Assembly (NCBI RefSeq): GCF_026337845.1
Contig: NZ_JAOVZF010000154.1
Location: 283,640-315,639, forward strand
Direction of reading: 5' to 3'
Source: Paraliomyxa miuraensis
Lineage (GTDB): Bacteria > Myxococcota_A > Polyangia > Nannocystales > Nannocystaceae
DNA length: 32,000 nucleotides
Position numbers and translations under genes: made by a program. Below are positions 4,390-32,000 of this stretch, one piece after another. The notes beneath the pieces were generated by a model. The model did no database searches and had not been told where the DNA came from. It worked only from the letters and a program-made list of their open reading frames with translations. The number at the start of each line of letters is the position of its first letter. The stretch's first letter is position 1.

Positions 4390-5064
4390 CTACCCGTCCT
4401 CGCTCGCCGAGCGCTCGCCCAGCTTCTCGCGCAGCGCCATCGCCCACCGATCCAGATCTCCCGCCGTCGACTCGCGCAGCGCCTGCGGCACCGCCTCGGC
4501 GTGCTCGATCTGCTCCCGCACCAGCCGACGCGCGCGGTGCAGCCGGCTCTTGACCGTACCCGGGGGGATCCCCACCACCACCGCGATGTCCTCCACCCGC
4601 ATCTCTTCCCAATAGTGCAGCTCCACCGCGATCTGCAGATCCACCGGAATGTGCCGCAGTGCGTGCAGCACCAGCCGCTGCTCGTCCTTGCCCGCCACCT
4701 CCAGCGAGGGCGAGCCCAGCACGTCGGCCACCGAGGTCTCGAGCTCCACCACCGGCTTGTCCTTGCGCGCGTGCTTGCGCAGGTGCATCAGCAGCTGCGT
4801 CCGCGCGATCGCCAGCAGGTAGGTCTTGAAGCTCGCCTCCCCACGAAAGCGGTGCACCCCGTCGGCGCACGCGAGCATCGTCTGCTGCACGAGATCCTCC
4901 ACCCCGTGACCGACCTTGGAGCGGAAGAACCGAAACAGCGTGCGAAAGTGCCGACGCAGCAGCCGCGATCCCGCGTCGTTGTCCCCCGCCCGCCAGGCCT
5001 GCAGCAGCTGCACGTCGTCTTGCACGCGATCGCCACGGTACCAACGCCCGGGCCCATCGGCCAT
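4390..5064 (-). CDS. RNA polymerase sigma-70 family ECF sigma factor
   Basis: Region 2: DLVQQTMLACADGVHRFRGEASFKTYLLAIARTQLL. Region 4: VELHYWEEMRVEDIAVVVGIPPGTVKSRLHRARRLV. ATG at 5064 lies inside a 13-bp repeat. There is a ~35 aa C-terminal tail after region 4. Confidence 0.9.
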   Translation of the reverse strand: MADGPGRWYRGDRVQDDVQLLQAWRAGDNDAGSRLLRRHFRTLFRFFRSKVGHGVEDLVQQTMLACADGVHRFRGEASFKTYLLAIARTQLLMHLRKHARKDKPVVELETSVADVLGSPSLEVAGKDEQRLVLHALRHIPVDLQIAVELHYWEEMRVEDIAVVVGIPPGTVKSRLHRARRLVREQIEHAEAVPQALRESTAGDLDRWAMALREKLGERSASEDG

Positions 5065-5106
5065 CACCACCGCCCATCACCACCGCCCATCACCACCGCC
5101 CATCAC
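5062..5106. repeat. 13-bp direct tandem repeat catcaccaccgcc x3 plus a 6-nt partial copy
   Basis: Exact copies at 5062-5074, 5075-5087 and 5088-5100, and a partial copy at 5101-5106. The repeat contains the kinase stop codon (TGA, 5092..5090) and the sigma ATG (5064..5062). Confidence 0.95.
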
Positions 5107-9268: not shown

Positions 9269-9311
9269 GGCGTCGCGCCCACCGTTGTACCACGCGGCTA
9301 TGCTCCACCGC

Positions 9312-10421
9312 ATGACCACCAAGATCGACGCGCTCGTGGTGGGCGCCGGGGTCATCGGCCTGGCCATCGCGCGGGCGCTCGCCCTCGCCGGCCGCGAGGT
9401 CGTGGTGATCGAGCGCGAGGGCGCCCCGGGCCAGCACACCTCCTCGCGCAACAGCGAGGTGCTCCACGCCGGGCTCTACTACCCCCCCGGCAGCCTCAAG
9501 GCGCGCCTGTGCGTGGAGGGCCGCCGCGCGCTGGTGCGCTACTGCGAGGCGCGGGGCGTGGCGCATCGCGTGCTCGGCAAGCTGGTCGTGGCCACCACCG
9601 AGGCCGAGCGACCCGCCCTGCGTCGGCTCCATGCCCAGGCCCAGCACAACGGCGTGGTCGACCTTCGCCCGCTGTCCGGCCCCGACGTCCGCGCGCTCGA
9701 GCCCGCGGTGCGGGCGGTCGAGGGCCTGTGGTCTCCGTCCACCGGCATCGTCGACGCGCACGCGCTCATGCGCGCGCTGTGGGCCGATGCCGAGCAGGCC
9801 GGAGCCATGCTCGCGCTGCACACCACGCTCGTGCGGGCTCGCGTGGAAGACGACGGCCTGCGCGTGTGGGCCGGTGACACAGAGCTGAAGTGCCAGCGCT
9901 TGATCAACGCCGCCGGCCTGCTCGCGCCGAAGGTCGCCCGCACCATCGAGGGCTCGCCCCTCGAGCGCGTGCCCCGGTCGTACCTGCTCAAGGGCAGCTA
10001 CTTCGCGCTGACCGGCCCCGCCCCGTTCTCCCACCTGGTCTATCCCATGCCCGACGCCACCACGCTCGGGATCCACGTCACCCTCGATCTTGCGGGTCGC
10101 GTGCGCCTGGGTCCCGATCGACAGTGGGTCGATCGCATCGACTACACCGTCGATCCCGAGCGCGCGCCGGCCTTTGCCCGTGCCGTGTCGCGCTACTACC
10201 CCGCGCTCGACCCCGCCGCCCTGCAGCCCGACACGGCCGGGATCCGCCCCAAGCTCCACGGCCCGCCGGGTCCACCCCCCGGCACCACGCCCGACTTCGT
10301 CATCGAAGGCCCCGCCGAGCATGGCGTGCCCGGCCTGTGCCATCTCTACGGCATCGAGAGCCCGGGTCTCACCGCCTGCCTCGCGATCGCCGACGAGGTC
10401 CTGCGACGCCTCGGCGCCTGA
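9312..10421 (+). CDS. FAD-dependent oxidoreductase, L-2-hydroxyglutarate oxidase/dehydrogenase (LhgO)-like
   Basis: N-terminal dinucleotide fold DALVVGAGVIGLAIARAL..VVVIE. The segment HTSSRNSEVLHAGLYYPPGSLKARLCVEG..LVVATTEAE closely parallels E. coli LhgO as I recall it. The C-terminus has YGIESPGLTA. Alternative ATG at 9300. Confidence 0.85.
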   Translation: MTTKIDALVVGAGVIGLAIARALALAGREVVVIEREGAPGQHTSSRNSEVLHAGLYYPPGSLKARLCVEGRRALVRYCEARGVAHRVLGKLVVATTEAERPALRRLHAQAQHNGVVDLRPLSGPDVRALEPAVRAVEGLWSPSTGIVDAHALMRALWADAEQAGAMLALHTTLVRARVEDDGLRVWAGDTELKCQRLINAAGLLAPKVARTIEGSPLERVPRSYLLKGSYFALTGPAPFSHLVYPMPDATTLGIHVTLDLAGRVRLGPDRQWVDRIDYTVDPERAPAFARAVSRYYPALDPAALQPDTAGIRPKLHGPPGPPPGTTPDFVIEGPAEHGVPGLCHLYGIESPGLTACLAIADEVLRRLGA

Positions 10422-16291: not shown

Positions 16292-16620
16292 CACCGGCCT
16301 TCGACACCGCACCCATGGTGCCCTTCCGATGTCGATCGATGACACACGAACCAAACACCCAGATTTGGCAGCGCGTCGCGGGTCCTCCCCCATCGACTGG
16401 TTCATCGTCGAGGGTTCTCGGCACCGGCGTTCCCCTGGCTGACCGTTGCCCGTCGAGGGATTCCCCTCGGATGGATCCCCGTCGACGGCGAAACCCCGCG
16501 TGCGCAGAACGGGCCCTCGGCCCCGAGCGATCGTAACGCCGTTCGCGACCTCGTCCCCCGCGCACCCACGGGTCCCCTTGTCCCGCGCGCGGATGCGTGC
16601 GCTACCCTCCGCCCCCGCCC

Positions 16621-17847
16621 ATGGCCGACCAGCTCTCGAACGACCTCGCGTCGCTTCGCATCGCCCGCGACGACGGCCCGCCGAGCTCCGGCTGGCTGCG
16701 GCGGCTGGTGTTGCTGGCTGTGCTCGGGATCGCGGGTGCGGCCGCCTGGATCTACGGCAAGCCGCTGGTCGAGGCCAAGGTGCTGCGGCCGGAGGTCGAC
16801 GTCACGCAGATCGTCGTCGTCACCCCCGCCGAGGCCCAGGCCAAGCTCACCTCCACCGGCTACGTCGTGCCCCAGCGGCTCTCCCGGGTGGGCGCTCGCG
16901 TGCCCGGGCGCATCAAGGAGATGCACGTGCGCGAGGGTCAGGTGGTCGCCGCCGGCGACGTGCTCGCGCAGCTCGAGGCCGCCGACCAGCGAGCGCTGCT
17001 CAACACCGCCCGGGCCCGCCTGCTCGCCGCCAAGGCGCAGGTGCAGACCGCCAAGGCCGAGCTCGCCGACGCCCAGCAACAGGCCAAGCGCGAGCGCGCC
17101 CTGGTGCAGCGCGGCGTGGGTCAGCTCGCCGCCGCCGAGGATCTCGAGTTCCGTGCGCTCGCCGTGCAAAAGCAGGTGGCCGCCGCCGAGGCCAACGTCA
17201 AGGCCGTCAAGGCCGAGGTCGACGCCATCGAGGTCAACCTCGCCGACTACACCATCACCGCGCCCATGGATGGCACCGTGGTCGCCAAGCCCGCCCAGGT
17301 CGGCGAGCTGGTCGGCGTGCAAGCGTCCGCGCTGGTCGAGCTCGCCGACTTCGGCTCGTTGATGGTCGAGACCGACGTGCCCGAGGGGCGGCTGCACCTG
17401 GTGCAGCTCGAGGATCCCTGCCAGATCGTGCTCGACGCCTACCCCACCCGCACCTATCGGGGTCGCGTGGAGCAGATCACCCCCAAGGTCAATCGCGCCA
17501 AGGCCACCGTCACCGTCAAGGTTCGCTTCGACGGCGATGCACAGGGCGTGCTGCCCGACATGGCCGCGCGCGTGAGCTTCTTGACCGGCGAGCCCGACCC
17601 CGCGCTCGCCGACGCCGCCCCCAAGGTCATCGTGCCCGCCGCCGCGATCGACGAGCGCAACGGCAGCACCGTGGTGTTCGTGCTCGACGACGACACCGTC
17701 CGCATGCAGACCGTCGAGCTCGGGGAGACCGTGGGCTCGGGATTCGAGCTGCTCGCGGGACCGCAGCCGGGGGCCACCGTGGTGCGCGAGCCGCCCAGCT
17801 CGCTCGAAGACGGCCAGAAGGTCGAACGAAAGGACCAAGCTTCATGA
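16621..17847 (+). CDS. Efflux periplasmic adaptor (HlyD/MacA-type membrane fusion protein)
   Basis: N-terminal TM segment LRRLVLLAVLGIAGAAAWI. Lipoyl-like GRIKEMHVREGQVVAAGDVLAQLE. A long coiled-coil hairpin, then ITAPMDGTVVAKPAQVGELV. Stop TGA overlaps the next ATG (ATGA at 17844-17847). Confidence 0.9.
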   Translation: MADQLSNDLASLRIARDDGPPSSGWLRRLVLLAVLGIAGAAAWIYGKPLVEAKVLRPEVDVTQIVVVTPAEAQAKLTSTGYVVPQRLSRVGARVPGRIKEMHVREGQVVAAGDVLAQLEAADQRALLNTARARLLAAKAQVQTAKAELADAQQQAKRERALVQRGVGQLAAAEDLEFRALAVQKQVAAAEANVKAVKAEVDAIEVNLADYTITAPMDGTVVAKPAQVGELVGVQASALVELADFGSLMVETDVPEGRLHLVQLEDPCQIVLDAYPTRTYRGRVEQITPKVNRAKATVTVKVRFDGDAQGVLPDMAARVSFLTGEPDPALADAAPKVIVPAAAIDERNGSTVVFVLDDDTVRMQTVELGETVGSGFELLAGPQPGATVVREPPSSLEDGQKVERKDQAS

Positions 17848-18569
17848 GCGCCGAAGCGACCAAGGCCGACGACGGCCACACCAAGCCCAGGGCCGACAAG
17901 CCCACCATCATCCGCTGCCAGGATCTCGGCCGCACGTTCTGGCGCGGCAAGGAGCGCCTCGACGTGCTCGAAGAGCTCGACCTCGAGATCCCCGAGGGCT
18001 CGTTCGAGGCGCTGATGGGCCCGTCCGGCTCCGGCAAGACCACGCTGCTGAACATCATCGCCGGCCTCGATCGACCGACTCGAGGCCGCATCGAGGTGGC
18101 CGGCAAGAGCCTCGGCGACCTGAGCGAGGCGGCGCTGGCCAAGTGGCGCTCGCAGACCATCGGGTTCGTGTTCCAGCACTTCAACCTGATCCCCGTGCTC
18201 ACCGCCGTCGAGAACGTGGAGCTGCCGCTCTTGCTCACCAAGGTGCCCGCCTCCGAGCGCAAGAAGCGGGCGCAGACCGCCCTGCGCGTGGTGGGCCTCG
18301 AGGACCGCATGGACCACCGCCCGCAGCAGCTCTCGGGCGGTCAGGAGCAGCGCGTGGGCATTGCCCGCGCGATCGTCCACGATCCCAAGATCATCGTGGC
18401 CGACGAGCCCACCGGCGAGCTCGATCGCCAGAGCGCCGACGACGTGCTCACCCTGCTCGAGCGGCTCAACCGCGAATTCGACAAGACCATCCTCATGGTC
18501 ACCCACGATCCCGCCGCCGCCGAGCGTGCCTCCGTGCTGCGCAAGCTCGACAAGGGGAGGCTGTCGTGA
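17844..18569 (+). CDS. ABC transporter ATP-binding protein (MacB/LolD-type)
   Basis: Walker A GPSGSGKTT, Q-loop, signature LSGGQEQR, Walker B IIVADEPTGELD, H-loop VTHD. GTGA overlap with the next gene at 18566-18569. Confidence 0.95.
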   Translation: MSAEATKADDGHTKPRADKPTIIRCQDLGRTFWRGKERLDVLEELDLEIPEGSFEALMGPSGSGKTTLLNIIAGLDRPTRGRIEVAGKSLGDLSEAALAKWRSQTIGFVFQHFNLIPVLTAVENVELPLLLTKVPASERKKRAQTALRVVGLEDRMDHRPQQLSGGQEQRVGIARAIVHDPKIIVADEPTGELDRQSADDVLTLLERLNREFDKTILMVTHDPAAAERASVLRKLDKGRLS

Positions 18570-19750
18570 CGCTCGTCGGCCTGTCGGTCAAGAACATCCG
18601 CCGCAACCGCCTGCGAGCCGTGCTCACCGTGCTCGGCGTCGCGATCGCCCTGCTCGCGTTCGTGTTCATCCGCACCACCCTCGACGCATGGTCCACCGGG
18701 GCCGAGCACGCCGCCCAGGACCGCCTGGGCACGATGCACAAGGTCTCGTTCACCATGGACCTGCCGCGCACCTACTTCGAGGAGCTCGACGGCACGCGCG
18801 GCACCGTGCCCGGGGTCAAGGCCGCCACCTACCAGAACTGGTTCGGGGGCAAGCACCCCGTGCGCGAGCAGGAGTTCTTCGCCACCATCGCCGTCCACTC
18901 CGACACGTTCTTCGACGTGTACTCCGACATGGCGGTCCCCCCCGATCAGCTCGCCGCCTGGAAGGAGGATCGCCAGGGCGCGATCGTCGGCGAGGCGCTC
19001 GCCAAGCAGTTCGGCTGGAGCGTCGGCGACGATGTCACGCTGCTGGGCACGATCTACCCCGGCGACTGGAAGTTCACGATCCGCGGGATCTACAGCGCCA
19101 CCCGGCGCGCCGTGGACCGCACCCAGTTCGTGTTCCACTGGACCTACCTCAACGAGTCCATCAAGGACACCATGCCCGAGCAGACCGAGCGGGTCGGCTG
19201 GATCAGCACCGTGATCGAGCCCGGCGCTCGCGGGGCCGACGTGGCCCAGGCCATCGACGCCAAGTTCGAGGAGCACGACGTCCAGACCCGCACCATGAGC
19301 GAGCGCGCGCTCAGCATGGAGTTCATGGGCTCGTTCGGCGCCATCCTCACCGCGCTCGACGTGGTCTCCGGCGTGATCCTCGTGATCATGATGCTGATCC
19401 TGGGCAACACCATCGCCATGAGCGTGCGCGAGCGGACCAACGAGCACGGCGTGCTGCTGGCGCTGGGCTTCCGCCCCAAGCACATCGCGCTGTTCGTGAT
19501 GGGCGAGGGCCTGGCGATCGGCCTGCTCGGCGGGCTCGCGGGCCTGTGCCTCTCCTACCCCTTCATCAACGGCATGGGCCGGTGGATCGAGGACAACATG
19601 GGCGCGTGGTTTCCGTACTTCCAGATCCCCATCGACGTGGCGATCACCGCCCTGCTGCTCGCGATGCTGCTCGCGGGGCTCGCCGCGGTGATTCCCGCCT
19701 ACCGGGCCTCGCGGCTCGACGTGATCGACGCCCTGCGTCGCATCGGCTGA
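18566..19750 (+). CDS. ABC transporter permease, FtsX/MacB-type (permease 1)
   Basis: GTG start. N-terminal TM segment RLRAVLTVLGVAIALLAFVFI. A large periplasmic domain, then three C-terminal TMs with RERTNEHGVLLALGFRPKHI, the typical FtsX-family motif. Confidence 0.9.
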   Translation: MTLVGLSVKNIRRNRLRAVLTVLGVAIALLAFVFIRTTLDAWSTGAEHAAQDRLGTMHKVSFTMDLPRTYFEELDGTRGTVPGVKAATYQNWFGGKHPVREQEFFATIAVHSDTFFDVYSDMAVPPDQLAAWKEDRQGAIVGEALAKQFGWSVGDDVTLLGTIYPGDWKFTIRGIYSATRRAVDRTQFVFHWTYLNESIKDTMPEQTERVGWISTVIEPGARGADVAQAIDAKFEEHDVQTRTMSERALSMEFMGSFGAILTALDVVSGVILVIMMLILGNTIAMSVRERTNEHGVLLALGFRPKHIALFVMGEGLAIGLLGGLAGLCLSYPFINGMGRWIEDNMGAWFPYFQIPIDVAITALLLAMLLAGLAAVIPAYRASRLDVIDALRRIG

Positions 19751-19782
19751 CGCCCGTCGGCGCCGCCCCGGAAACGCTCGCC

Positions 19783-20949
19783 ATGATCCCGATCCGCTAC
19801 AACCTCCGCAACCTCGCCGTTCGTCGCGCCACCACCCTGGCCACCGCGCTCGGCGTGGGCCTGGTCGTGTTCGTGCTCGCCGCCGCGCTCATGCTCACCG
19901 AGGGACTTCGGCGCACGCTGTCGCGCTCGGGGCAGCCCGACAACGCCGTCGTCATGCGCAAGGGCTCCGACAACGAGCTGTCGAGCTCGATCGCCAACAC
20001 CCAGGTCGGCCAGATCGCCTCCGCCCCCGGCGTGAAGAAGGACGCCGACGGCCGCCCGCTCGCCGTCGGCGACGTGGTGGCCGTGATCTTCGCCGATCTC
20101 GCCAACGGCAAGGGCAAGTCCAACATCGTGATCCGCGGCGTCACCCCCGAGGGCATCGCCTTTCGGCCCGAGGTGAAGGTCGTCGAGGGCACCCTGCCCC
20201 GCCCGGGCACCGAGGAGGTCATGGTGGGCCGCAAGATCGCGCGGCGCTTCGAGGGGTTGGATCTCGGCGGCGAGCTCGAGCTCCGCAAGAACCGCTCGGC
20301 CAAGGTCGTCGGTGTGTTCGAAGCCGGCGGCTCGTCCTACGAGTCCGAGGTCTGGGGCGATCTCGACTACGTGGCCGGGGCCTTCGGCCGCGAGGGCATG
20401 GTCTCGATGGTCCGCGTGCGGCTCGAGTCGCCCGCGCTCTTCGATGGGTTCGCGGCCGCGGTCGAGCAGGACAAGCGCCTCGGGTTCGACGCCATGCCCG
20501 AGCTCGAGTTCTACGAGAAGGCCTCGGAGCAGACCGCCGTGTTCATCACCGCGATGGGGGTGATCATCGCCGTGTTCTTCTCCATCGGCGCCATGATCGG
20601 CGCCATGATCACGATGTACGGCGCGGTGGCCAACCGCAGGAGCGAGATCGGCGTGCTGCGGGCGCTGGGGTTCTCGCGCACCACCATCCTCGTGTCGTTC
20701 CTGTTCGAGTCCGTGCTCCTGTCGCTGCTCGGTGGCCTGCTCGGCATCGCCGCCGCCAGCACGCTCGGCATGGTCAAGTTCTCCATGATGAACTTCCAGA
20801 CCTTCTCCGAGATCGTGTTCGCGTTCGAGCCCACCTCGGAGATCCTGATCTCCGCGCTGGTGTTCGGCGGCGTGATGGGGGTGATCGGCGGGTTCCTGCC
20901 CGCGATCCGGGCCGCGCGCACGGCCCCGATCGAGGCGATGCGCGGGTAG
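19783..20949 (+). CDS. ABC transporter permease, FtsX/MacB-type (permease 2)
   Basis: N-terminal TM segment TLATALGVGLVVFVLAAALML. A periplasmic domain, then NRRSEIGVLRALGFSRTTIL and three TMs. It is clearly diverged from permease 1. Confidence 0.9.
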   Translation: MIPIRYNLRNLAVRRATTLATALGVGLVVFVLAAALMLTEGLRRTLSRSGQPDNAVVMRKGSDNELSSSIANTQVGQIASAPGVKKDADGRPLAVGDVVAVIFADLANGKGKSNIVIRGVTPEGIAFRPEVKVVEGTLPRPGTEEVMVGRKIARRFEGLDLGGELELRKNRSAKVVGVFEAGGSSYESEVWGDLDYVAGAFGREGMVSMVRVRLESPALFDGFAAAVEQDKRLGFDAMPELEFYEKASEQTAVFITAMGVIIAVFFSIGAMIGAMITMYGAVANRRSEIGVLRALGFSRTTILVSFLFESVLLSLLGGLLGIAAASTLGMVKFSMMNFQTFSEIVFAFEPTSEILISALVFGGVMGVIGGFLPAIRAARTAPIEAMRG

Positions 20950-23436: not shown

Positions 23437-24055
23437 GAAGACGAACGTGCCGTTCGCATGCAACCCGGCAACTCACCATCCTCCGCCTGGCTGCGTAACG
23501 ATGTCCTCGAGACTCCAACTTCGAACCCGATCGAGCACTGGCCCAAGGGCTGCTCTTCGCGCCGCCATCGCCCACGTTTCGAGCGTGCGGCTCCAATTCC
23601 TGCGCCCCGCAACGAACGAGCCGTCCAGAATTCGACCCACGGGAGCCCCCGACCCCGCTACCATCCTCCCGCAATCACCACGACCGTCCCGAGCATCCAC
23701 GATGGGCAAGGCCACCACCTTCTCCTCCACCCGCACCACCATGCGTCACCACGACGTCGTCGTCGTTGGAATCCCACAGCGCGCACTGGCAAGTCCTCGA
23801 TGACCTGCTTGCAGTAGTGACGCGCCATGAGCTGGTCGTCGGGATCATCCACCATCGGATGGAAAGCCCACGAGGTAGATGTCGAGCTTGGCAGACGGGC
23901 CTGCTTACTGCAGGACCCTCGCACCGGTCTCGAGCACCTTGGTCCTCGTGGTCTCCGGCGCCCATGATGTCGAGGCTCCGGCACGAGCCAACGCCGCCCT
24001 GCCTTGGCGCGGTCGACAACGACACGTCGATCGTCGATGATGGACCGTGAGACCG

Positions 24056-24979
24056 ATGGTGAGCCCGCAACGATTTCCGTTCCTCCTCGCCGGGAGCGTG
24101 GCACTGGCCTTCGTCCTCACGCTGCTCAGCGGCTGCGACGGTCGACCACTGGTCGACACCGACCCCAGCGATGGAGGCACGGCGGAGGCCACCGCGAGCG
24201 AGACCATGGCGAGCGAGGGCACGACGGTAGCGACCTCGACGATGGCGACCTCGGCCTCCGATGAGACCGCCGGCGACGAAACCGCAACGACCACCGAGAC
24301 CGGCGAGGCCACGGATTGTCACACCCCGCGGCCGATCCCTCCGTCCCCGTTCGACTGCCGCGGCGTCGACGGGGTGCTCACCCACCACGTTGGCATCGAG
24401 GAGGGGGGCCACGATCCCTCGATCCTCTCCGGCATCCGGCGGGTAGAGGGCTCGGTGTTCCTCCACACGGCCGACATCACCAATCTGGACTTCATGGGGT
24501 GCCTGCAAGAGGTCACGGGCGGAATCACCATTTTCGACAACGACCAGCTCACCAATGTCGACGGGCTGTGGAACATCCGCGAGATCGGCACCGACTTCGT
24601 GTTCGCGAACAACGACGCATTGGTGATCTTCGACGGGCTGCCCAACCTCGAGACCTTCGCCCGTGGCTTGTTCATCCATGACAACGGATCCCTGGAGGAG
24701 CTCAATGGGTTCCAGAGCTTGATGGGTCTCGAGGGGATCATGTTCATTATCAAGGATGGGCAAGGCTGGGAGGAAGGGTTCGTCTCAATTCACAGCAACC
24801 CCGTGCTCCGACACATCGATGGCCTGGGTGGGCTCACCGTGGTCAACGGGACCTTCACCGTCACGGACAACCCGATGCTGTGCTGCAGCAGCGTCGCGTG
24901 CGTGGGCGAGAACCTGCTGCTGCCCATCGCGCCCGAGCCGACATGGATGCAATGCTCGGGCAACGACCATGGCTGCTGA
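24056..24979 (+). CDS. Lipoprotein with receptor L-domain-like (right-handed beta-helix / LRR-like) repeats
   Basis: Signal MVSPQRFPFLLAGSVALAFVLTLLSG|C. Thr/Ala/Glu-rich linker. Repeats CLQEVTGGITIFDNDQLTNVDGLWNIREIG..FANNDALVIFDGLPNLE..IHDNGSLEELNGF, ending in TVTDNPMLCC. This resembles the EGFR/insulin-receptor L-domain pattern (L..V.G.l.I..N..L ... NNPxLC). Confidence 0.7.
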   Translation: MVSPQRFPFLLAGSVALAFVLTLLSGCDGRPLVDTDPSDGGTAEATASETMASEGTTVATSTMATSASDETAGDETATTTETGEATDCHTPRPIPPSPFDCRGVDGVLTHHVGIEEGGHDPSILSGIRRVEGSVFLHTADITNLDFMGCLQEVTGGITIFDNDQLTNVDGLWNIREIGTDFVFANNDALVIFDGLPNLETFARGLFIHDNGSLEELNGFQSLMGLEGIMFIIKDGQGWEEGFVSIHSNPVLRHIDGLGGLTVVNGTFTVTDNPMLCCSSVACVGENLLLPIAPEPTWMQCSGNDHGC

Positions 24980-25246
24980 GTCGTGAGCATCCGACGCAGT
25001 GGCAGTCCGTCCCCGTCGCGCTGACCTCGAAGGATGGACCTGCGTGCCCATCTGGCATGTGCTCGGGGCCCAGCCTCGCTCGCCGTGCGGCTGGCACCGC
25101 GCCGCGCGCCGCCATGACAACTCCGAGCCACGAGCTCGATGGCTCCGCGACGGCCGAGAGTCACCGCGCGCATGCGACAACTCCCCGTTGCATCCGTCTC
25201 TCCACCGTACCCTTCGCCCACGGGCGAAATGGAAAGAGACTAGACC

Positions 25247-25912
25247 ATGAAGATCCTGAATGCGCTCGTCGCCTTGGCCTTGCCCCTCACCCTCCTGCTC
25301 GCCGCCTGCGACGGCCCCGGCGACGACGAGACCAGCGCCGGAAGTGCCGAGGGCACGGCGACCGACGGTGAGGTCACGGGCGGGTCCACCGAAGGAGGAA
25401 CGGCCGACGGCTCCGGTGACGGCCCCACCAGCTGTGAGGGTCCCAACCCCAGCGGTTGCATCGAGACCGGCTGCGGCGAGGGCGAGGTCTGCTCCACCGA
25501 GACCGAGGAGTGCATCTCCAGCGCCTGCTCCTGCGACGAGGCCTCCGGCCAGTGGCAGTGCACCCCCGATTGCAGCGGGGGCGTGTGCGTTCCCCAGTTG
25601 GAGTGCGAGGGGCCCAACCCCGCCGGCTGCATCGAGACCGGCTGCGACGAGGGTGAGGTCTGCTCCACCGAGACCGAGGAGTGCATCTCGTCGTCCTGCA
25701 CGTGCGACGAGGCCACCGGTCAGTGGGTGTGCACCGACGATTGCGGAGGCGGGTCGTGCATCCCCGAGGGGATGGGGGCTTGCCCCGGGGTCAACCCGGC
25801 CGACGAGTGCCCCGAGGATCCCGAGGCCTGCGTCCCCTCGGGCTGCGTCTGCGACCCGGTGGCCGAGGCGTGGAGCTGCACTCCCGATTGCAACGGTGGC
25901 ACGCGCTGCTGA
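25247..25912 (+). CDS. Lipoprotein with three tandem cysteine-rich modules
   Basis: ATG preceded by GGAAAGAG. Signal MKILNALVALALPLTLLLAA|C. Two near-identical 57-aa modules (CEGPNP.GCIETGC.EGEVCSTETEECISS.C.CDEA.GQW.C..DC.GG.C) and one diverged third module. Confidence 0.85.
   Translation: MKILNALVALALPLTLLLAACDGPGDDETSAGSAEGTATDGEVTGGSTEGGTADGSGDGPTSCEGPNPSGCIETGCGEGEVCSTETEECISSACSCDEASGQWQCTPDCSGGVCVPQLECEGPNPAGCIETGCDEGEVCSTETEECISSSCTCDEATGQWVCTDDCGGGSCIPEGMGACPGVNPADECPEDPEACVPSGCVCDPVAEAWSCTPDCNGGTRC
25433..25774 (+). repeat. Tandem duplication, 2 x 171 bp, inside the Cys-repeat lipoprotein gene
   Basis: Copy 1 is 25433-25603 and copy 2 is 25604-25774. They have long identical runs, for example ggctgcatcgagaccggctgcg and gaggtctgctccaccgagaccgaggagtgcatctc. 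A diverged third module lies at ~25781-25909. Confidence 0.9.
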
Positions 25913-26646
25913 GCGCGACGGGAACGAGGGAGCCGAGCGACGACCCGCTCAGCCCGTCGAGCCAGAAGCACGAGCGAGTCGAGCCCACCACCGCTCGACT
26001 CGTTCGAGAACATCGACGTCCTCGAGAACGTGGTCGACCCGGATCTCGACCCGCGACGAGGCGAGCGCGTGGGCACCGTCGTGCGCCTGCATACGCATCG
26101 CATCACGCTGGCGTGGAGCACCGGGCACACGACGACGGTGCGACGGCGATGGTTGAGAGCATCTCGGAGGCCACCCACCACGACCAGGAACCCACCCAAA
26201 CGTCGCGCCCGCCGAGTCGGTCGCGCCATTCCCATCGCATCCCACCCCATCGTGCCACCGATCCTCACATCTTGGAGCCGACAGCATGCCAACGAAGAAG
26301 CCTCCCAAGCGGAGACCATGGATGGCACCCCTCGCGAGGGTCGGTCGGCTGTAGCCCGATCGATCCGACGCACGATCACGCATGCCCAAAGTACCTCCTC
26401 ACCGTCCAACGTCGGGATGGCCGCCACTCACCGTGCTGGGCCCACTGGCGCCTACGAGAGCGGGTGGGATAAGCAGCACGGCACCGGGGCTGGCCAGCGC
26501 CCGCCTCGGCACCACGGTGCAGTACCGGCCGCTGAGCTTGGAATGCCGAGGTGCACCTCGAATTCAGCGCCAATGCTCCCTACCTACTGCTCAAATTATC
26601 GGTCTGGGTTCCTAGCCCTAGCCTCGGAGAACCATAAATGGGCGAT

Positions 26647-26967
26647 TCATTGCCATCTTGGGTCGCCCGGCTTTCCATCGCCGTTTGCGTCTTTTGCGCA
26701 CCCGCCATGGTTACAACTGAGGCTGCACTCCCATGAGTCGCAGAGACCGTTTCCGCTACAGTGATTACAGCATGGGCTGTAATTTCCGGGACATCCGATT
26801 ATCGCATGGGCTTCCGCCAATCCAAACTCCAAATCCACACAACTCAACCCTTCGACTTGCTCAACCGGCGCCATCGAGTGTTGAACCGCCGTCGTATCGA
26901 TCTGAACAAAGCTGACCAAACCGTATGCACCGATGGACAACACACTCGCCAAAAGAATCCTCTTCAT
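26647..26967 (-). CDS. Small exported cysteine-rich peptide (106 aa), unknown family
   Basis: Strong SD: AGAGGAGA is followed by aatgggtg and then ATG (26967). N-terminus MKRILLASVLSIGAYGLVSFV is signal or anchor-like. The C-terminal part has 8 Cys within 32 aa (CPGNYSPCCNHCSGNGLCDSWECSLSCNHGGC). Codons frequently end in A/T, unlike all neighbouring genes. Confidence 0.6.
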   Translation of the reverse strand: MKRILLASVLSIGAYGLVSFVQIDTTAVQHSMAPVEQVEGLSCVDLEFGLAEAHAIIGCPGNYSPCCNHCSGNGLCDSWECSLSCNHGGCAKDANGDGKPGDPRWQ

Positions 26968-27181
26968 CACCCATTCTCCTCTGTTGACCCAACCCCGGCC
27001 CGAACCGGGCTTTTACAGTCTTGTAACGACTGAATCCACTCCGGCGAGTTCCTTTCGCCTTTCGCCGTGCGCCTTTCGTGCACCGCTCGTAGCACGAGTC
27101 TCCTGCTTCCGAACCGGAAACACCCGCCGCGAACATTCCTGCTACCAGGAAACATGCCGCATGGATCCACAACGAGCCCTG

Positions 27182-27212
27182 ACTATACCGCACCCGTATG
27201 TGGCGGTGTCAA
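27182..27212 (-). promoter_or_regulatory. Candidate sigma70-type promoter for the small Cys-rich peptide gene
   Basis: The minus strand reads TTGACA (27212..27207), a 19-nt spacer, then TATAGT (27187..27182), within the most AT-rich part of the window. The spacer is longer than optimal. This would give a ~200-nt leader. Confidence 0.35.
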
Positions 27213-27218
27213 TTATTG

Positions 27219-27488
27219 TCATAGAAATGTAAAATGATACTGGTTTGTTCGGCGGGATGTGGAGGTGACCCACACGCCACCCCTGGGCTCGCCCTCGACG
27301 CTGCCGACGCTGCTCGGGTGAACACCTCTCGCCGCCACGACGTTCGGGTGCCTCAGCCGTGCCATTTGCCCTCGCCTCGCGAACGAGCCGGGCCGGGCCA
27401 TCGTCGTGGAGGCGGTTCGAACCGACTTGAGCGCGACCTCGCGCTGCAACTCTCGTACGGCGAGTACGGCGAGTACGACGAGCAGCAC
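27219..27488 (-). pseudogene. Probable remnant of a Ser/Thr kinase N-lobe
   Basis: The minus-strand frame reads REVALKSVRTASTTMARPGSFARRGQMARLRHPNVVAARGV. This has the VAxK ... F.R(E)...ARL.HPN.V spacing of Hanks kinase subdomains II-IV. The alpha-C Glu is replaced (RR). The G-loop position is occupied by a 9-bp repeat (VLAVLAV). The frame ends at the low-GC islet, and no HRD or DFG motif follows. Confidence 0.35.
27455..27481. repeat. 9-bp tandem repeat gtacggcga x3 (third copy gtacgacga)
   Basis: Copies at 27455-27463, 27464-27472 and 27473-27481, read directly from the sequence. Confidence 0.9.
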
Positions 27489-27559
27489 TACTCGGCGCCG
27501 CTTGCTGCTTGCCAGGGCCCATGCAACCCTGCTGCGGGCGATCGACGGGGATCTCGGTG

Positions 27560-27874
27560 ATGGCCTACCAGGATCTCGGCAACTACTACATCAAGACGTG
27601 GGCGATGCACGTGGCGTGGGACTGCTGGGTGGTGGCACGCATACTAGCGCCCGGACACACCTACGTGCAGACCTACGAGGCCAACGAGCAGCGCCCGCGG
27701 GACATGCGTCCACAGTTCGGCGGCTCTCGGTGTGCAATCGGCCTCGGAGTCGACGCGAAAGCCGTCGTGGCACTCTACAACGGAAGACTTGCGCACCATG
27801 CGCCGAGCGCCGAGCGCCGAGCGCCGAGCGCCGAGCGGATTGTGCGCACCAGGATGCCCCGCCACCCGCGCTAG
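27560..27874 (+). CDS. Hypothetical ORF, possibly a gene remnant
   Basis: ATG at 27560 after GGGGA. The first ~50 codons have host-like high GC3 and a protein-like composition (MAYQDLGNYYIKTWAMHVAWDCWVVARILAPGHTYVQTYEANEQ). The 3' part runs through the heptanucleotide repeat (APSAERRAPSAER). No family recognised. Confidence 0.3.
   Translation: MAYQDLGNYYIKTWAMHVAWDCWVVARILAPGHTYVQTYEANEQRPRDMRPQFGGSRCAIGLGVDAKAVVALYNGRLAHHAPSAERRAPSAERIVRTRMPRHPR
27802..27836. repeat. Heptanucleotide microsatellite gccgagc x5
   Basis: Five perfect copies at 27802-08, 09-15, 16-22, 23-29 and 30-36. The unit length is not a multiple of 3. Confidence 0.95.
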
Positions 27875-27900
27875 CGCCCTCCCCTGCGGAACCTGTACGA

Positions 27901-27937
27901 AGGGGCCTGCTCTCGAACCCCTCGAAAACAGGCCCCT
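27901..27937 (-). terminator. GC-rich hairpin immediately downstream of tRNA-Ala (possible terminator, no U-tract)
   Basis: aggggcctg (27901-27909) and caggcccct (27929-27937) are perfect reverse complements. That is a 9-bp stem with a 19-nt loop, starting 7 nt after the tRNA 3' end on the minus strand. Confidence 0.4.
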
Positions 27938-27943
27938 ATCGGG

Positions 27944-28016
27944 TGGAGGATAGCGGGATCGAACCGCTGACATTCGGCTTGCAAAGCCGACGCTCTCCCA
28001 GCTGAGCTAATCCCCC
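27944..28016 (-). tRNA. tRNA-Ala (anticodon UGC)
   Basis: The minus strand folds as GGGGGAT TA GCTC AGCTGGGA GAGC G TCGGC TTTGCAA GCCGA ATGTC AGCGG TTCGATC CCGCT ATCCTCC A. The cloverleaf is complete (73 nt), the anticodon is TGC, and the G3:U70 alanine identity pair is present. CCA is not encoded. Confidence 0.95.
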
Positions 28017-30012: not shown

Positions 30013-31641
30013 TCACATACGCTCGTCCATCCGCTCCAGGACGAATCGGGCGAACCGAGGGATGAACCAGCGCACCCGGTCTTCGTCCGCCATCCGGTAG
30101 CGTTGCAGGTCTGCCCAGTGCACGCATGCCGTGGGGGTGCCGTCGCAGTCGGGGCACCCGCTGGAGGTCACGCGAGCGGCACAGCGCCAGATCGCGGGAG
30201 GGATGCTCCCGACCTTGGCCAGCGACTGCTCGGCAAGGCCGCCCAGGTAGGCACCCAGGGCCGCTCGCACCGTCGGTCGGTTGCGCTCCACCGCGCCCGT
30301 GTCCACCAGGTGAAACCACTCGCGGAACATCGCGGTCAGGCCGGACGCCTCCACGCTGCGCAGGTGTGGATCCATCGCCGCCTGAACCTCCTCCCACTCG
30401 AGGATGTTGGCGTGGTGGTTGGGGCCCGTCCACGTGGGAATTCCCCACACCAGCGGCTCGCAGACGTTGTGCCCCATGGCCGCGCACAGTGTCCCTCCCA
30501 CGAATGCGCCCTGCCCCACTCCGTAGATCGCTCGGAGCATGCCGGTGCACGGCACGATGACCGCGCTCGGGTTCTCGCCCTGGCGCAGCGCGGAGAGCAG
30601 CCTCACCTCACCGAGCCCCCCGGCCGCGCGGAGGACCTCATCCCTGAGCACCGTCCCCTGCCCACCTCGTCGCTCCCAGTGCCGCGGAGCCAGCACCAGC
30701 GTGGCATCGTCTCGATCGCCGCGCGCCTCCCCAAACGCATCCGCCAGCAGCTGGTCTTCGCCCGGGTGCGTGGAGCCAGCCGTGAACAGGAGCCGACGCC
30801 GTCCCAGCTCTTGCAGCCACCGCAAGCGCTGGCCCCACGTCTCGATCTCCTCCAACCGCCCGAGCCCCGGCTGACGGCGTGGCCTCGGCTGCACATCGGC
30901 CTCCCGAAACCACCTGAACGGATCGGCATGGCCGCGGTCCTCGATCATCAGGTGCAGCACGACCAGATCGGCCGACTTGTCCAGCCACTCGGTGGCCACC
31001 TCTTGCGGGCTCGGCTGCTTGCGATGCACCCTGGCACCGGACTGCGCGACGCCGGTCCACATCTCGCGCTCGTCGAGGAGCTCCCGAGGAACGATCCCCG
31101 AGGGGTATGCGGCCGGAGTCGCGATGATGTCCAGTCGCCGCAGATGAAGCCGTGCGGCGCGACGTCGTTGATCGGCCAGTCGCTTGGCCATGCCCGCCGT
31201 GCGCGGCCCCAGTTCCTGGGCCAGCACGAACACCTCGAACGTGGCCTCGGCGACCTGCAGATCGTACTCGACCTGGCAAAGGAGCGCCGAGTCGATCCGC
31301 GACTCCTCCGACTCGGACTCGGAGGGCACCGCACGCAGCCGCGCGTGGGCCGTGGACAGACGCTCGCACCGCTGCTCCAGCCCCCGGGTCATCGCCAGCA
31401 GCGTCTCGAGCTGGTTCGCACTCTGGCTGGCGGCCAACGAGCCCCATTGCCGCGCGCGCAGCCCGTTCAGCCGCGGAAGCAGGATCTTCAGCGGGCCCGT
31501 CAGCTCGGGCAGGGCGTCATCTCCCGGGCTCGCGGGCAGCGGGACCCCGGCCCGGGACGCCTGCTGCCGATCGGCCAGGCGCCGCAACCAGCGCTCGAGC
31601 TGCTGCACGTCTCGATCGAGCGTGGCAGATCCCGTGCTCAT
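30013..31641 (-). CDS. Divergent GT30 (WaaA/KdtA Kdo-transferase-like) protein with N-terminal coiled-coil extension
   Basis: The C-terminal half matches WaaA motifs as I recall them: LLFTAGSTHPGED (vs IATSTHEGEE), LVLAPRHWERR (vs LVPRHPERF) and GMLRAIYGVGQGAFVGGTLCAAMGHNVCEPLVWGIPTWTGPNHHAN (vs MGEL..LY..ADLAFVGGSL...GGHNPLEAAA..IPVLMGPHTFNF). The N-terminal ~190 aa is helical and Arg/Leu/Gln-rich. ATG 31641 overlaps the upstream stop (ATGA). Confidence 0.75.
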   Translation of the reverse strand: MSTGSATLDRDVQQLERWLRRLADRQQASRAGVPLPASPGDDALPELTGPLKILLPRLNGLRARQWGSLAASQSANQLETLLAMTRGLEQRCERLSTAHARLRAVPSESESEESRIDSALLCQVEYDLQVAEATFEVFVLAQELGPRTAGMAKRLADQRRRAARLHLRRLDIIATPAAYPSGIVPRELLDEREMWTGVAQSGARVHRKQPSPQEVATEWLDKSADLVVLHLMIEDRGHADPFRWFREADVQPRPRRQPGLGRLEEIETWGQRLRWLQELGRRRLLFTAGSTHPGEDQLLADAFGEARGDRDDATLVLAPRHWERRGGQGTVLRDEVLRAAGGLGEVRLLSALRQGENPSAVIVPCTGMLRAIYGVGQGAFVGGTLCAAMGHNVCEPLVWGIPTWTGPNHHANILEWEEVQAAMDPHLRSVEASGLTAMFREWFHLVDTGAVERNRPTVRAALGAYLGGLAEQSLAKVGSIPPAIWRCAARVTSSGCPDCDGTPTACVHWADLQRYRMADEDRVRWFIPRFARFVLERMDERM

Positions 31642-32000
31642 GGGCCGCCGCCCGCATCCAGCGGGTCCTCGTACTGCTTGGCGATCAACGCCTCGGTGAG
31701 CTCGAGCCGCTCCAGGATGTCGACGATGGTCCGCGACGAGTCCGCACGAAAGTACGGATTCGCGTCGTCCCGAACCTGCACCGCTGCCAGCGCTGCGAGC
31801 CCCTTGCGCATGGCCTCGAGCGATGTCTCCACATGGATCGTGTGCGCCGCGTGCTGGCGGTTCTTTTGTCGCAGCCCCACGTTGAGCGCGGGAATCCTCA
31901 GCGACGGTGCCTCGATGATTCCGCATGAAGAATTGCCCACGAGCCCCGCCGAGGCCCGCAGCAGCGCGAGGAACTCGAACCGCGGGAGGGAGGGCACCAC
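31638..32000 (-). CDS. UDP-N-acetylglucosamine 2-epimerase (hydrolysing, NeuC-like), C-terminal part; 5' end outside window
   Basis: The motif LVGNSSCGIIEAPSLRIPALNVGLRQKNRQ matches the GNSSSGIIE.PS...P..NIG.RQ.GR signature of NeuC/LegG-type epimerases. The ORF is open to the right window edge. Confidence 0.7.
   Translation of the reverse strand: MVPSLPRFEFLALLRASAGLVGNSSCGIIEAPSLRIPALNVGLRQKNRQHAAHTIHVETSLEAMRKGLAALAAVQVRDDANPYFRADSSRTIVDILERLELTEALIAKQYEDPLDAGGGP

What the first reader, a model, noticed from the sequence alone, without database searches (positions are those of the whole stretch)
26570..27255. Low-GC islet encoding a small exported peptide with 8 Cys in 32 residues, next to a tRNA gene
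About 0.7 kb drops to roughly 40-58% G+C (hand counts) in a genome where neighbouring genes are above 70%.

The islet carries one well-formed minus-strand gene (26967-26647). It has one of the best Shine-Dalgarno sequences in the window (AGAGGAGA, 8 nt spacing). Its N-terminus is hydrophobic and signal-like. Its C-terminal region is CPGNYSPCCNHCSGNGLCDSWECSLSCNHGGC followed by a charged tail. Its codons frequently end in A/T, unlike every other gene here.

The islet sits inside a ~2 kb gene-poor stretch (25913-27943) that ends at a tRNA-Ala, and it abuts a truncated kinase remnant. This suggests foreign DNA inserted at, or decayed from, a tRNA-associated island.

The peptide could be a disulfide-rich bacteriocin, toxin or signalling peptide. 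No RiPP-modifying enzymes are nearby.
Basis: partly seen in the sequence, partly recalled or inferred. Interest (0 to 1): 0.65.

Follow-up and report, generated by a model that had tools for sequence, protein, structure and literature searches.

The report
Orphan secreted cysteine-rich peptide gene
A 0.7-kb patch of unusually AT-rich DNA in the marine myxobacterium "Paraliomyxa miuraensis" carries one small gene, with no detectable relative anywhere, for an exported 8-cysteine peptide whose first half looks like a defensin-type antimicrobial peptide, although family membership and function are unproven.

Summary
Positions 26570-27255 are 53.9% G+C against 69.5% for the window. The lowest 686-nt stretch of the whole window is 26561-27246.

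The minus-strand ORF 26647-26967 (106 aa) is very likely a real gene:
- It has a Shine-Dalgarno site (AGAGGAGA, 7 nt from the ATG).
- It has a signal-peptide-like N-terminus, followed by an acidic pro-region.
- It has 8 Cys in 32 residues.
- None of 3000 dinucleotide shuffles of the islet gave this combination.

[quoted passage not shown] The only lead is weak. The motif GCPGNYSPCCNHC...GLC matches the N-loop and helix signature of invertebrate-type cis-defensins, which are known in myxobacteria with the same signal-propeptide-mature layout. The defining C-x-C motif is missing (C-x3-C instead), and the similarity is not statistically secure.

The tRNA-island idea is not supported: there is no att repeat and no integrase, and native-composition DNA lies between the islet and the tRNA. 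The "kinase remnant" was not found.

Best reading: a compositionally foreign cassette encoding a secreted, disulfide-rich, probably antagonistic peptide.

The parts
26550..27250 (.). Low-G+C islet (about 54% G+C in a 69.5% background) with sharp edges and no terminal repeats
   Evidence: composition, window minimum 26561-27246; no terminal direct or inverted repeats
26647..26967 (-). CDS of the 106-aa pre-pro-peptide (ATG 26967-26965, stop TGA 26649-26647)
   Evidence: ORF; atypical codon usage; the feature combination is absent from 3000 shuffles; called as a gene on the Logan contig
26975..26982 (-). Shine-Dalgarno sequence AGAGGAGA, 7 nt upstream of the ATG
   Evidence: read directly from the sequence
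26905..26967 (-). Signal-peptide-like N-terminus, residues 1-21 (MKRILLASVLSIGAYGLVSFV). Net charge +2; mean Kyte-Doolittle hydropathy 2.15 for residues 4-21. The cleavage site is inferred, not predicted with SignalP.
   Evidence: BLASTP aligns it colinearly with the Spumosin-1 signal peptide, both followed by QID.
26797..26904 (-). Acidic pro-region, residues 22-57 (net charge -6, one Cys at residue 43)
   Evidence: Acidic and hydrophobic N-terminal tails are described for bacterial defensin classes II-IV.
26698..26796 (-). Cys-rich domain, residues 58-90: GCPGNYSPCCNHCSGNGLCDSWECSLSCNHGGC. Framework C-x6-CC-x2-C-x5-C-x4-C-x3-C-x4-C.
   Evidence: Cys positions; weak match of its first 17-19 residues to defensins
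26650..26697 (-). C-terminal tail AKDANGDGKPGDPRWQ. It contains a D-x-N-x-D-G motif, possibly a Ca-binding loop (inference only).
   Evidence: read from the sequence. This stretch and GLCDSWE caused the spurious HMMER hits to TSP3-like repeat proteins.
27182..27212 (-). Promoter-like site TTGACA, 19 nt, TATAGT in the most AT-rich block. It implies a leader of about 200 nt. A second consensus match lies at 27263-27234.
   Evidence: read from the sequence; scan; 27200-27249 is 34% G+C. Consensus matches only; function is inferred.
26968..27178 (-). Putative 5' leader. It holds (CGAAAGG)-type heptamer repeats at 27051-27078 and a hairpin just upstream of the SD.
   Evidence: fold z = -2.1; period-7 repeat; no Rfam match
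27942..28016 (-). tRNA-Ala(TGC), 690 nt from the islet. Context only, not shown to be linked.
   Evidence: no att-like repeat

Best explanation
The islet is a self-contained cassette of about 0.7 kb of compositionally foreign DNA in the genome of 'Paraliomyxa miuraensis' SMH-27-4. It consists of an AT-rich promoter region, a leader of about 200 nt, and one gene for a 106-aa pre-pro-peptide.

Proposed mechanism:
- The N-terminal signal peptide takes the precursor through the Sec pathway.
- The acidic pro-region (residues 22-57) is removed or acts as an intramolecular chaperone.
- The C-terminal 8-Cys domain (residues 58-90) forms four disulfides outside the cytoplasm.
- The stable mini-protein acts extracellularly against competitors or prey.

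I think it is most likely an atypical, possibly defensin-derived, antimicrobial peptide. The N-loop/helix signature GCPxxxxxC(C)xHC...GxC is kept, but the beta-strand C-x-C motif is replaced by C-x3-C.

Shown: the composition break, the intact ORF with SD, the signal-like and Cys-rich features beyond chance, the orphan status and the source organism.
Inferred: expression, secretion, processing, disulfide pattern, relation to defensins and antagonistic function.
For: Gene reality:
- SD plus signal-like N-terminus plus at least 8 Cys in 32 aa occurred in 0 of 3000 dinucleotide shuffles of the islet.
- The ORF is called as a gene on the independent Logan contig.
- The islet junctions are identical in two assemblies.

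Foreignness:
- 53.9% against 69.5% G+C, 4.6 sd below the mean and the lowest in the window.
- GC3 58% against 79-93%; CAI-like 0.33 against 0.62-0.79.

Defensin lead:
- The only PDB sequence with E<=10 to the Cys domain is the oyster defensin 2b68, sharing GCPGN...C.NHC...G.C.
- hhalign against a 16-sequence profile of invertebrate, fungal, actinobacterial and myxobacterial defensins aligns IGCPGNYSPCCNHCSGN, 53% identity, probability 38.8%.
- The HMMER score is reached by 1 of 10000 (no null2) to 88 of 10000 (default) composition-preserving shuffles.
- The spacing C-x6-C-x3-C and the G-x-C are those of Cg-Def.
- Bacterial cis-defensins are concentrated in myxobacteria. The myxobacterial AITD-like ones have a signal peptide, propeptide, mature peptide precursor (PMC8819291). 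Several have extra Cys, including CC doublets at the same place: Boletus-2 GCPRQGGECCRAYC and Deltaproteisin DCCDAYC (PMC11561630 Table S5).
- The whole precursor aligns colinearly with the Spumosin-1 precursor (BLASTP E=0.001 for the single comparison).
- The pro-region is acidic (-6), as described for classes II-IV.
- Atypical defensin-like peptides with altered cystine frameworks but true homology are documented in fungi (PMC5234102).
Against: - There is no expression or peptide evidence. No sequencing run could be listed.
- In the protein collection the exact 106-aa sequence was recorded only on the Logan contig. The neighbouring ORF was recorded on the 398,768-nt contig, so the public assembly may not annotate this gene.
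- The defining C5-x1-C6 motif of the CS-alpha-beta framework is absent, and only the N-terminal 17-19 residues align.
- The PDB hit has E=7, and Pfam Defensin_2 is not matched.
- A plainly spurious 7-residue match (GLxDxWE of TSP3-like repeats) gives equally small shuffle p-values. The shuffle statistics therefore do not prove homology after a post-hoc choice of family.
- AlphaFold single-sequence models are unreliable (pLDDT 54 and 57; no helix in the Cys domain) and Foldseek found nothing.
- The Cys domain is anionic (-2), whereas most active defensins are cationic.
- No dedicated immunity or export genes lie next to it.
Confidence: 0.45

Rival explanations
1. The ORF is intact but biologically inert. 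It would be a recently acquired or de novo orphan, or a decaying gene, that is not expressed or has no function. The islet is then just a leftover of foreign or decayed DNA in a gene-poor stretch.
For: - No homologue anywhere.
- In the collection it is recorded only on the Logan contig, not on the large contig.
- The flanks look like decayed or orphan DNA with no family matches.
- ORFs of at least 100 aa arise in 45% of shuffles.
- Three other ORFs of 90-110 aa overlap the same region.
Against: - The conjunction of a strong SD, a signal-like N-terminus, an acidic pro-region and 8 clustered Cys was never seen in 3000 shuffles.
- The reading frame is unbroken.
- A consensus-like -35/-10 pair sits upstream.
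Confidence: 0.2
2. It is a secreted or periplasmic metal-binding or redox peptide rather than an antimicrobial. The Cys/His motifs (CCNHC, SCNHGGC) would bind Cu, Zn or a similar metal. The D-x-N-x-D-G tail would bind Ca. The 19-nt promoter spacer could reflect control by a MerR-type regulator.
For: - Two C-N-H motifs and 2 His lie among the 8 Cys, and the domain is anionic.
- The tail DANGDG fits the DxDxDG-type Ca-loop pattern (my knowledge of that motif, not tested).
- The TTGACA, 19 nt, TATAGT spacing is the kind used by MerR-family promoters (read; the MerR link is from general knowledge).
Against: - No metal-resistance, MerR or copper-homeostasis gene occurs in the window.
- An even number of Cys in an exported protein more often means disulfides.
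- No family match supports it.
Confidence: 0.1
3. It is a precursor of a ribosomally synthesised, post-translationally modified peptide (for example a bufferin-, ranthipeptide- or lanthipeptide-like product) whose modifying enzymes are encoded elsewhere.
For: - A Cys-rich core follows a long leader-like region.
- The genome has several RiPP clusters (PMC9960870).
Against: - No radical-SAM, DUF692/MNIO, YcaO, LanB/C/M or peptidase-transporter gene occurs in the 32 kb.
- Most RiPP precursors lack Sec signal peptides.
- The gene is monocistronic on its own islet.
Confidence: 0.05
4. It is a disulfide-rich secreted peptide with a non-antimicrobial role, unrelated to defensins. Examples are a protease inhibitor, a toxin against eukaryotic grazers, or a signalling or developmental peptide.
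For: - The Cys framework C-x6-CC-x2-C-x5-C-x4-C-x3-C-x4-C matches no family tested.
- Its C-terminal half (CDSWECSLSCNHGGC) weakly echoes the end of each repeat of the neighbouring Cys-rich lipoprotein (W-x-C-x3-C-xGGxC; BLASTP E=0.09-1.6).
Against: Nothing positive points to any of these functions. The only external similarity found is to defensins.
Confidence: 0.15

Closest known systems
Bacterial cis-defensins of myxobacteria, class IV / AITD-like (Spumosin-1 WP_153823935.1, Boletus-2 WP_095978346.1, Fuscin-2 WP_095987040.1; PMC11561630, PMC8819291)
   Same: - The host is a myxobacterium.
- The precursor is a signal peptide, then a long acidic pro-region or N-terminal tail, then a C-terminal Cys-rich domain.
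- The mature domain starts with GCP.
- The C-x(5-6)-C-x3-C spacing has His before the third Cys, followed by G-x-C.
- There is an extra Cys adjacent to the helix Cys, as in Boletus-2 and Deltaproteisin.
- The precursor aligns colinearly with Spumosin-1.
   Different: - There is no C-x-C in the last strand (C-x3-C instead).
- The segment between helix and G-x-C is shorter (5 residues, against 8-10 in the aligned defensins).
- The domain carries an extra C-terminal Cys and a 16-residue tail, and is anionic.
- The similarity is statistically insecure (hhalign 38.8%, PDB E about 7).
- The gene sits on a 54% G+C islet.
Ancient invertebrate-type defensins of molluscs, arthropods and fungi (Cg-Def 2b68, MGD-1 1fjn, micasin 2lr5, eurocin 2lt8, plectasin 1zfu)
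   Same: - Nine of 13 residues are identical to Cg-Def over GCPGNxxxCxNHC.
- Both have 8 Cys, as do Cg-Def and MGD-1 (four disulfides).
   Different: - The C-terminal half does not align, so the CS-alpha-beta framework is incomplete.
- No Pfam Defensin_2 hit.
- It is bacterial, has no intron, and has a different pro-region.
Atypical fungal defensin-like peptides of Zymoseptoria with altered cystine frameworks (PMC5234102)
   Same: They are a precedent for true defensin homologues that have lost the canonical Cys2-x3-Cys3 / Cys5-x1-Cys6 pairing and probably changed fold.
   Different: In those, homology was shown by gene structure and precursor conservation within a large family. Here there is a single sequence with no relatives.
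tRNA-linked genomic islands / integrative elements
   Same: The composition is atypical, and the islet lies on the 3' side of a tRNA gene.
   Different: - It is only 0.7 kb.
- There is no integrase, and no att repeat of the tRNA end.
- It is separated from the tRNA by 690 nt of native-composition DNA.

Membership tests
cis-defensins (CS-alpha-beta; AITD-like / bacterial class IV) | Cystine framework C1...C2-x3-C3...G-x-C4...C5-x1-C6 (as defined in PMC5234102) | tested here: not met
   C59-x6-C66-x3-C70 and G74-L-C76 are present. No C-x-C exists anywhere: the last Cys are C81-x3-C85-x4-C90 (definition).
cis-defensins (CS-alpha-beta; AITD-like / bacterial class IV) | Significant sequence or profile similarity to family members | tested here: inconclusive
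   - phmmer against PDB: only hit 2b68, E=7.2-7.6.
- Pfam Defensin_2: no hit at E<=10, although genuine Cg-Def itself reaches only 19 bits.
- hhalign probability 38.8% over 17 columns.
- Shuffle tests 1-213 of 10000, depending on the null.
- A spurious motif gives similar p-values.
cis-defensins (CS-alpha-beta; AITD-like / bacterial class IV) | Precursor of signal peptide, propeptide (acidic N-terminal tail), mature peptide, as in myxobacterial members | tested here: met
   - N-terminus MKR plus an 18-residue hydrophobic stretch; pro-region net charge -6; Cys domain at the C-terminus.
- Colinear BLASTP alignment with the Spumosin-1 precursor, E=0.001.
- Layout described.
- SignalP was not available.
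cis-defensins (CS-alpha-beta; AITD-like / bacterial class IV) | CS-alpha-beta fold (helix pinned to a beta-sheet by two disulfides) | tested here: inconclusive
   AlphaFold2 single-sequence models have pLDDT 53.7 and 56.9, with no helix in the Cys domain. Foldseek against PDB gave 0 matches. The models are too poor to decide.
cis-defensins (CS-alpha-beta; AITD-like / bacterial class IV) | Antimicrobial activity (for AITDs, typically lipid II binding) | not testable with these tools
   Needs synthesis or expression, then assays.
tRNA-associated genomic island / integrative element | Direct repeat of the tRNA 3' end (att) bounding the element | tested here: not met
   The 22-mer of the tRNA 3' end occurs once in 32 kb, even with 3 mismatches allowed. 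No repeat family involves 27942-28016.
tRNA-associated genomic island / integrative element | Integrase or other mobility gene next to the tRNA | tested here: not met
   No integrase, transposase or phage family was found among the window ORFs or in the flanks, even at E<=10.
tRNA-associated genomic island / integrative element | Atypical composition contiguous with the tRNA | tested here: not met
   The low G+C is confined to 26550-27250. Positions 27250-27940 are 63-70% G+C, with native-type GC3 (about 0.8-0.9) in ORF 27509-27874.
RiPP precursor | Modifying enzyme(s) encoded next to the precursor | tested here: not met
   Pfam and NCBIfam annotation of the ORFs of at least 200 aa judged to be genes (plus the flanking small ORFs) shows kinases, an ECF sigma factor, a DAO oxidoreductase, a MacAB-type ABC exporter and FG-GAP proteins. 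No RiPP maturase was found.
TSP type-3-like / DxDxDG calcium-binding repeat proteins | Homology to the repeat unit | tested here: not met
   - The hits P0002 and P0007 are long repeat proteins without Cys.
- Each unit matches only GLxDxWE or DxDGDG (at most 9.8 bits).
- The summed E-value comes from 16 repeats.

The most novel reading that the evidence does not exclude
The peptide is a genuine but fold-shifted cis-defensin (C-x3-C replacing C-x-C, plus a fourth disulfide involving the CC doublet). It would have been acquired horizontally by a marine/halophilic myxobacterium from a lower-G+C donor. That would be a direct, compositionally still visible case of defensin gene flow into (or between) the bacterial lineages proposed as the cradle of eukaryotic defensins.
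Probability: 0.15. Interest if true: 0.7.

Novelty: new variant of a known kind. Interest (0 to 1): 0.45.

Why it matters
Myxobacteria are the main bacterial reservoir of cis-defensins. They are central to the debate on whether eukaryotic defensins have a prokaryotic origin or moved by horizontal transfer (PMC11561630, PMC8819291).

A secreted 8-Cys peptide that keeps the defensin N-loop/helix signature but has a different C-terminal cystine framework, and that sits on an obviously foreign 0.7-kb cassette, would be relevant in two ways:
- If it is confirmed as a relative, it would be a bacterial example of framework or fold change in this superfamily, and a visible transfer event.
- If it is unrelated, it is a new disulfide-rich scaffold from a producer of bioactive compounds. 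At 33-49 residues it is small enough for chemical synthesis and activity screening.

It also shows that small orphan genes on low-G+C islets may be missing from annotation of G+C-rich genomes.

Tried and rejected
Searches for relatives (none found):
- Word-indexed search of 5.8 billion proteins: only self.
- Full HMMER search against 1.84 billion representatives: seven proteins at E<=0.001, one being the query itself. The other six are long repeat proteins without Cys-rich homology (two TSP3-like D/G/N repeat proteins and other repeat-rich surface proteins), and I rejected them as spurious.
- tblastn-confirmed scans of metagenome and viral contigs.
- A degenerate motif scan for GCPGNxxxCCNHC in metagenomes: 0 matches.
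- Plasmid and phage DNA and protein searches.
- Pfam, NCBIfam, PHROGs and PADLOC gave no family. The PADLOC REase_II match at E=0.007 was ignored as noise.

RNA and structure:
- Rfam at E<=1 finds only the tRNA.
- Two AlphaFold2 single-sequence runs were both low-confidence, and Foldseek against PDB was empty.

Synteny (failed):
- My one genome-collection scan went on the repetitive FG-GAP neighbour. It returned only distant paralogues (at most 61% identity over the best segment), none with a tRNA-Ala(TGC) context.
- A search with the MacB-like permease returned nothing.
- Exact look-ups of three neighbouring proteins found no record.
- The organism is the only sequenced member of its genus.

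Expression: no sequencing runs could be listed.

Islet structure and flanks:
- No terminal repeats or target-site duplication at the islet edges.
- No att copy of the tRNA.
- The 'kinase remnant' was not found in any flanking frame.

Origin by duplication of the neighbouring Cys-rich lipoprotein or of the Stig1-like kinase domain: only motif-level echoes, not significant.
Full report
**Observation.** The stretch 26570-27255 is 53.9% G+C in a window of 69.5%. For windows of the same length the mean is 69.5% and the sd 3.5%. The lowest window in all 32 kb is 26561-27246, and the next lowest is 61.5%. The edges are abrupt, near 26550 and 27250. AGAGGAGA lies 7 nt upstream of the ATG. GC3 is 58% against 79-93% for neighbouring genes, and a CAI-like index against local genes is 0.33 against 0.62-0.79. 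Cys residues are at 43, 59, 66, 67, 70, 76, 81, 85 and 90. tRNA-Ala(TGC) lies at 27942-28016 on the minus strand.

**Is it a gene?**
- ORF length is not evidence: 45% of dinucleotide-preserving shuffles of the islet contain an ORF of at least 100 aa, and three other ORFs of 90-110 aa overlap the region.
- High Cys density also appears in junk frames of this G+C-rich DNA.
- The conjunction is what counts. A signal-like N-terminus with an SD occurs in 0.27% of shuffles, at least 8 Cys in 32 residues in 1 of 3000, and all together in 0 of 3000.
- The N-terminus (MKR plus 18 hydrophobic residues, mean hydropathy 2.15) is followed by an acidic segment (residues 22-57, net -6), then the 33-residue Cys domain (net -2) and a 16-residue tail.
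- The most AT-rich block (27200-27249, 34% G+C) holds consensus-like promoter elements on the gene's strand: TTGACA, 19 nt, TATAGT at 27212-27182, and a second match at 27263-27234. These imply a leader of about 200 nt that folds slightly better than shuffles (z = -2.1). It matches no Rfam family.
- I conclude the gene is very probably real. Expression is not shown.

**Source.**
- The only other record of the protein is a 1710-nt Logan contig from run SRR21887204. Its reverse complement is an exact match to window 26120-27829.
- That run is the genome project of 'Paraliomyxa miuraensis' SMH-27-4: Nannocystaceae, near-seashore soil, 11.85 Mb, 69.7% G+C, N50 398,768 bp (PMC9960870).
- The neighbouring ORF's database entry sits on a contig of exactly 398,768 nt.
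- Two assemblers therefore agree on both islet junctions.
- The strain is the only sequenced member of its genus, which limits comparative tests.

**Homology.** No true relative was found in any of these:
- 5.8 billion clustered proteins.
- A filter-free HMMER scan of 1.84 billion representatives.
- Metagenome, viral, plasmid or phage DNA.
- Pfam, NCBIfam, PHROGs or PADLOC.

The HMMER hits with E down to 4.5e-12 are long Cys-free repeat proteins. Sixteen TSP3-like units each match only GLxDxWE or DxDGDG. They are artefacts of repetition.

**The defensin lead.**
- For: among 177,635 PDB sequences the only one with E<=10 is the oyster defensin Cg-Def (2b68). It aligns GCPGNYSPCCNHC...GLC with GCPGNQLKCNNHC...GYC (E about 7).
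- For: the literature shows that cis-defensins occur in bacteria mainly in myxobacteria. Myxobacterial AITD-like peptides have a signal peptide, propeptide, mature peptide precursor with acidic N-terminal tails. Some carry extra Cys, including a CC doublet at the equivalent place (PMC11561630 with Table S5; PMC8819291).
- For: against a 16-sequence profile taken from PDB alignments and those papers, hhalign aligns 17 columns (53% identity, probability 38.8%).
- For: HMMER scores exceed all but 1 of 10000 (no composition correction) to 88-213 of 10000 (default) shuffles.
- For: the full precursor aligns colinearly with the Spumosin-1 precursor (E=0.001 for one comparison).
- Against: the C-terminal half does not align.
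- Against: the defining C5-x1-C6 motif (PMC5234102) is absent, replaced by C81-x3-C85. Pfam Defensin_2 is not hit.
- Against: structure prediction is uninformative.
- Against: a control with the plainly spurious TSP3 motif gives equally small shuffle p-values. These statistics therefore cannot carry a homology claim after post-hoc choice of the family.

I rate the relation to defensins at roughly 0.3. Atypical defensin-like peptides with altered frameworks are a documented precedent.

**Other echoes.** The C-terminal half (CDSWECSLSCNHGGC) resembles the end of each of the three repeats of the neighbouring Cys-rich lipoprotein (QWQCTPDCSGGVC and variants). BLASTP E is 0.09-1.6 and the two genes differ by about 20 points in G+C, so a recent duplication is unlikely.

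**Context.**
- The islet is not bounded by repeats.
- No copy of the tRNA 3' end exists in the window, and no integrase or other mobility gene was found.
- Between islet and tRNA lies native-composition DNA. ORF 27509-27874 (+) has GC3 of about 0.8-0.9 over 27510-27700. It is recorded as a 117-aa protein and is itself an orphan.
- Upstream of that ORF is a coding-like stretch in another frame (27256-27500), which suggests a disrupted gene. Its 3' end carries a perfect (GCGCCGA)5.4 repeat.
- The left flank, 25913-26550, has only faint coding signals and no family match.
- No kinase remnant was found.
- The nearest export machinery is a MacAB/DevCBA-type tripartite ABC system at 16597-20949, four genes away.

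**Mechanism (inferred).** The steps are Sec export, removal or chaperone role of the acidic pro-region, four disulfides in the oxidising compartment, and release as a stable mini-protein that acts on competitors or prey. If the domain is defensin-derived, the likely pairing is C59-C76, C66-C81, C70-C85 and C67-C90. The retained G-C-P N-terminus and the His before the third Cys would then correspond to the lipid II-binding face of plectasin-type defensins (my knowledge of that literature, not tested here). The rivals are an inert orphan ORF, a Cys/His metal-binding peptide, a RiPP precursor and another disulfide-rich effector. They are listed with their tests.

**Verdict.** This is a real compositional islet and a very probable orphan gene for a secreted 8-Cys peptide. 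The tRNA-island interpretation is unsupported, and defensin membership is not established because a defining feature is not met. It is a new variant within the known kind 'small secreted disulfide-rich peptides of myxobacteria'. Interest is moderate.

Noticed in passing
window 27509-27874 (+), with 27256-27500 upstream: An orphan ORF (121 aa from the TTG start; recorded as 117 aa on a 398,768-nt contig) with native G+C-rich third codon positions (about 0.8-0.9 over 27510-27700) and no homologue in 5.8 billion proteins. A coding-like stretch in a different frame precedes it and runs right up to the islet edge. This suggests a frameshifted or truncated gene that the islet may have interrupted.
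   Followed up: partly
window 27800-27837: A perfect heptanucleotide tandem repeat (GCGCCGA) x5.4 inside the 3' end of that ORF, encoding APSAERRAPSAER. The Logan contig breaks exactly here. It is a possible slippage-prone tract.
   Followed up: no
window 25247-25912 (+): A lipoprotein-like 221-aa protein made of three Cys-rich repeats of about 57 aa (171-nt DNA repeat, 82-87% identical). It has no Pfam or NCBIfam match. The repeat ends (W-x-C-x3-C-xGGxC) weakly echo the C-terminal half of the peptide.
   Followed up: partly
window 27051-27078 (minus strand: CGAAAGG repeats): Four imperfect copies of a heptamer (CCTTTCG on the plus strand) inside the putative 5' leader of the peptide gene. This could be a protein- or RNA-binding site.
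   Followed up: no
window 16597-20949 (+): A tripartite MacAB/DevCBA-type exporter: an HlyD-family adaptor, an ABC ATPase (LolD/MacB/DevA-like, 1.5e-69) and a MacB_PCD+FtsX permease. It lies 5.7 kb from the peptide gene. The word-indexed protein search with the permease oddly returned no hit at E<=1e-30.
   Followed up: partly
window 4390-9451 (-) and 11285-13873 (+): An ECF sigma factor lies next to a 1453-aa Ser/Thr kinase with PEGA and FG-GAP beta-propeller domains. A second kinase (862 aa) carries a Stig1-like Cys-rich domain. This is typical myxobacterial signalling architecture.
   Followed up: no
window 24375-25060: The second-lowest G+C stretch of the window (61.5%; 200-nt windows down to 55% at 24600-24799). 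It overlaps the 3' part of ORF 24047-24979, which has a Receptor L-domain match.
   Followed up: no
window 30013-31926 (-): A 637-aa protein whose residues about 370-515 match only the C-terminal part of Kdo transferase (WaaA) models, far below their cut-offs. It may be a divergent glycosyltransferase.
   Followed up: no
window 26763-26778 and 26797-26812: A 16-nt direct repeat (88% identical, 34 nt apart, out of frame) inside the peptide gene. It covers the codons for SPCCNH and EAHAII. It is probably chance.
   Followed up: no
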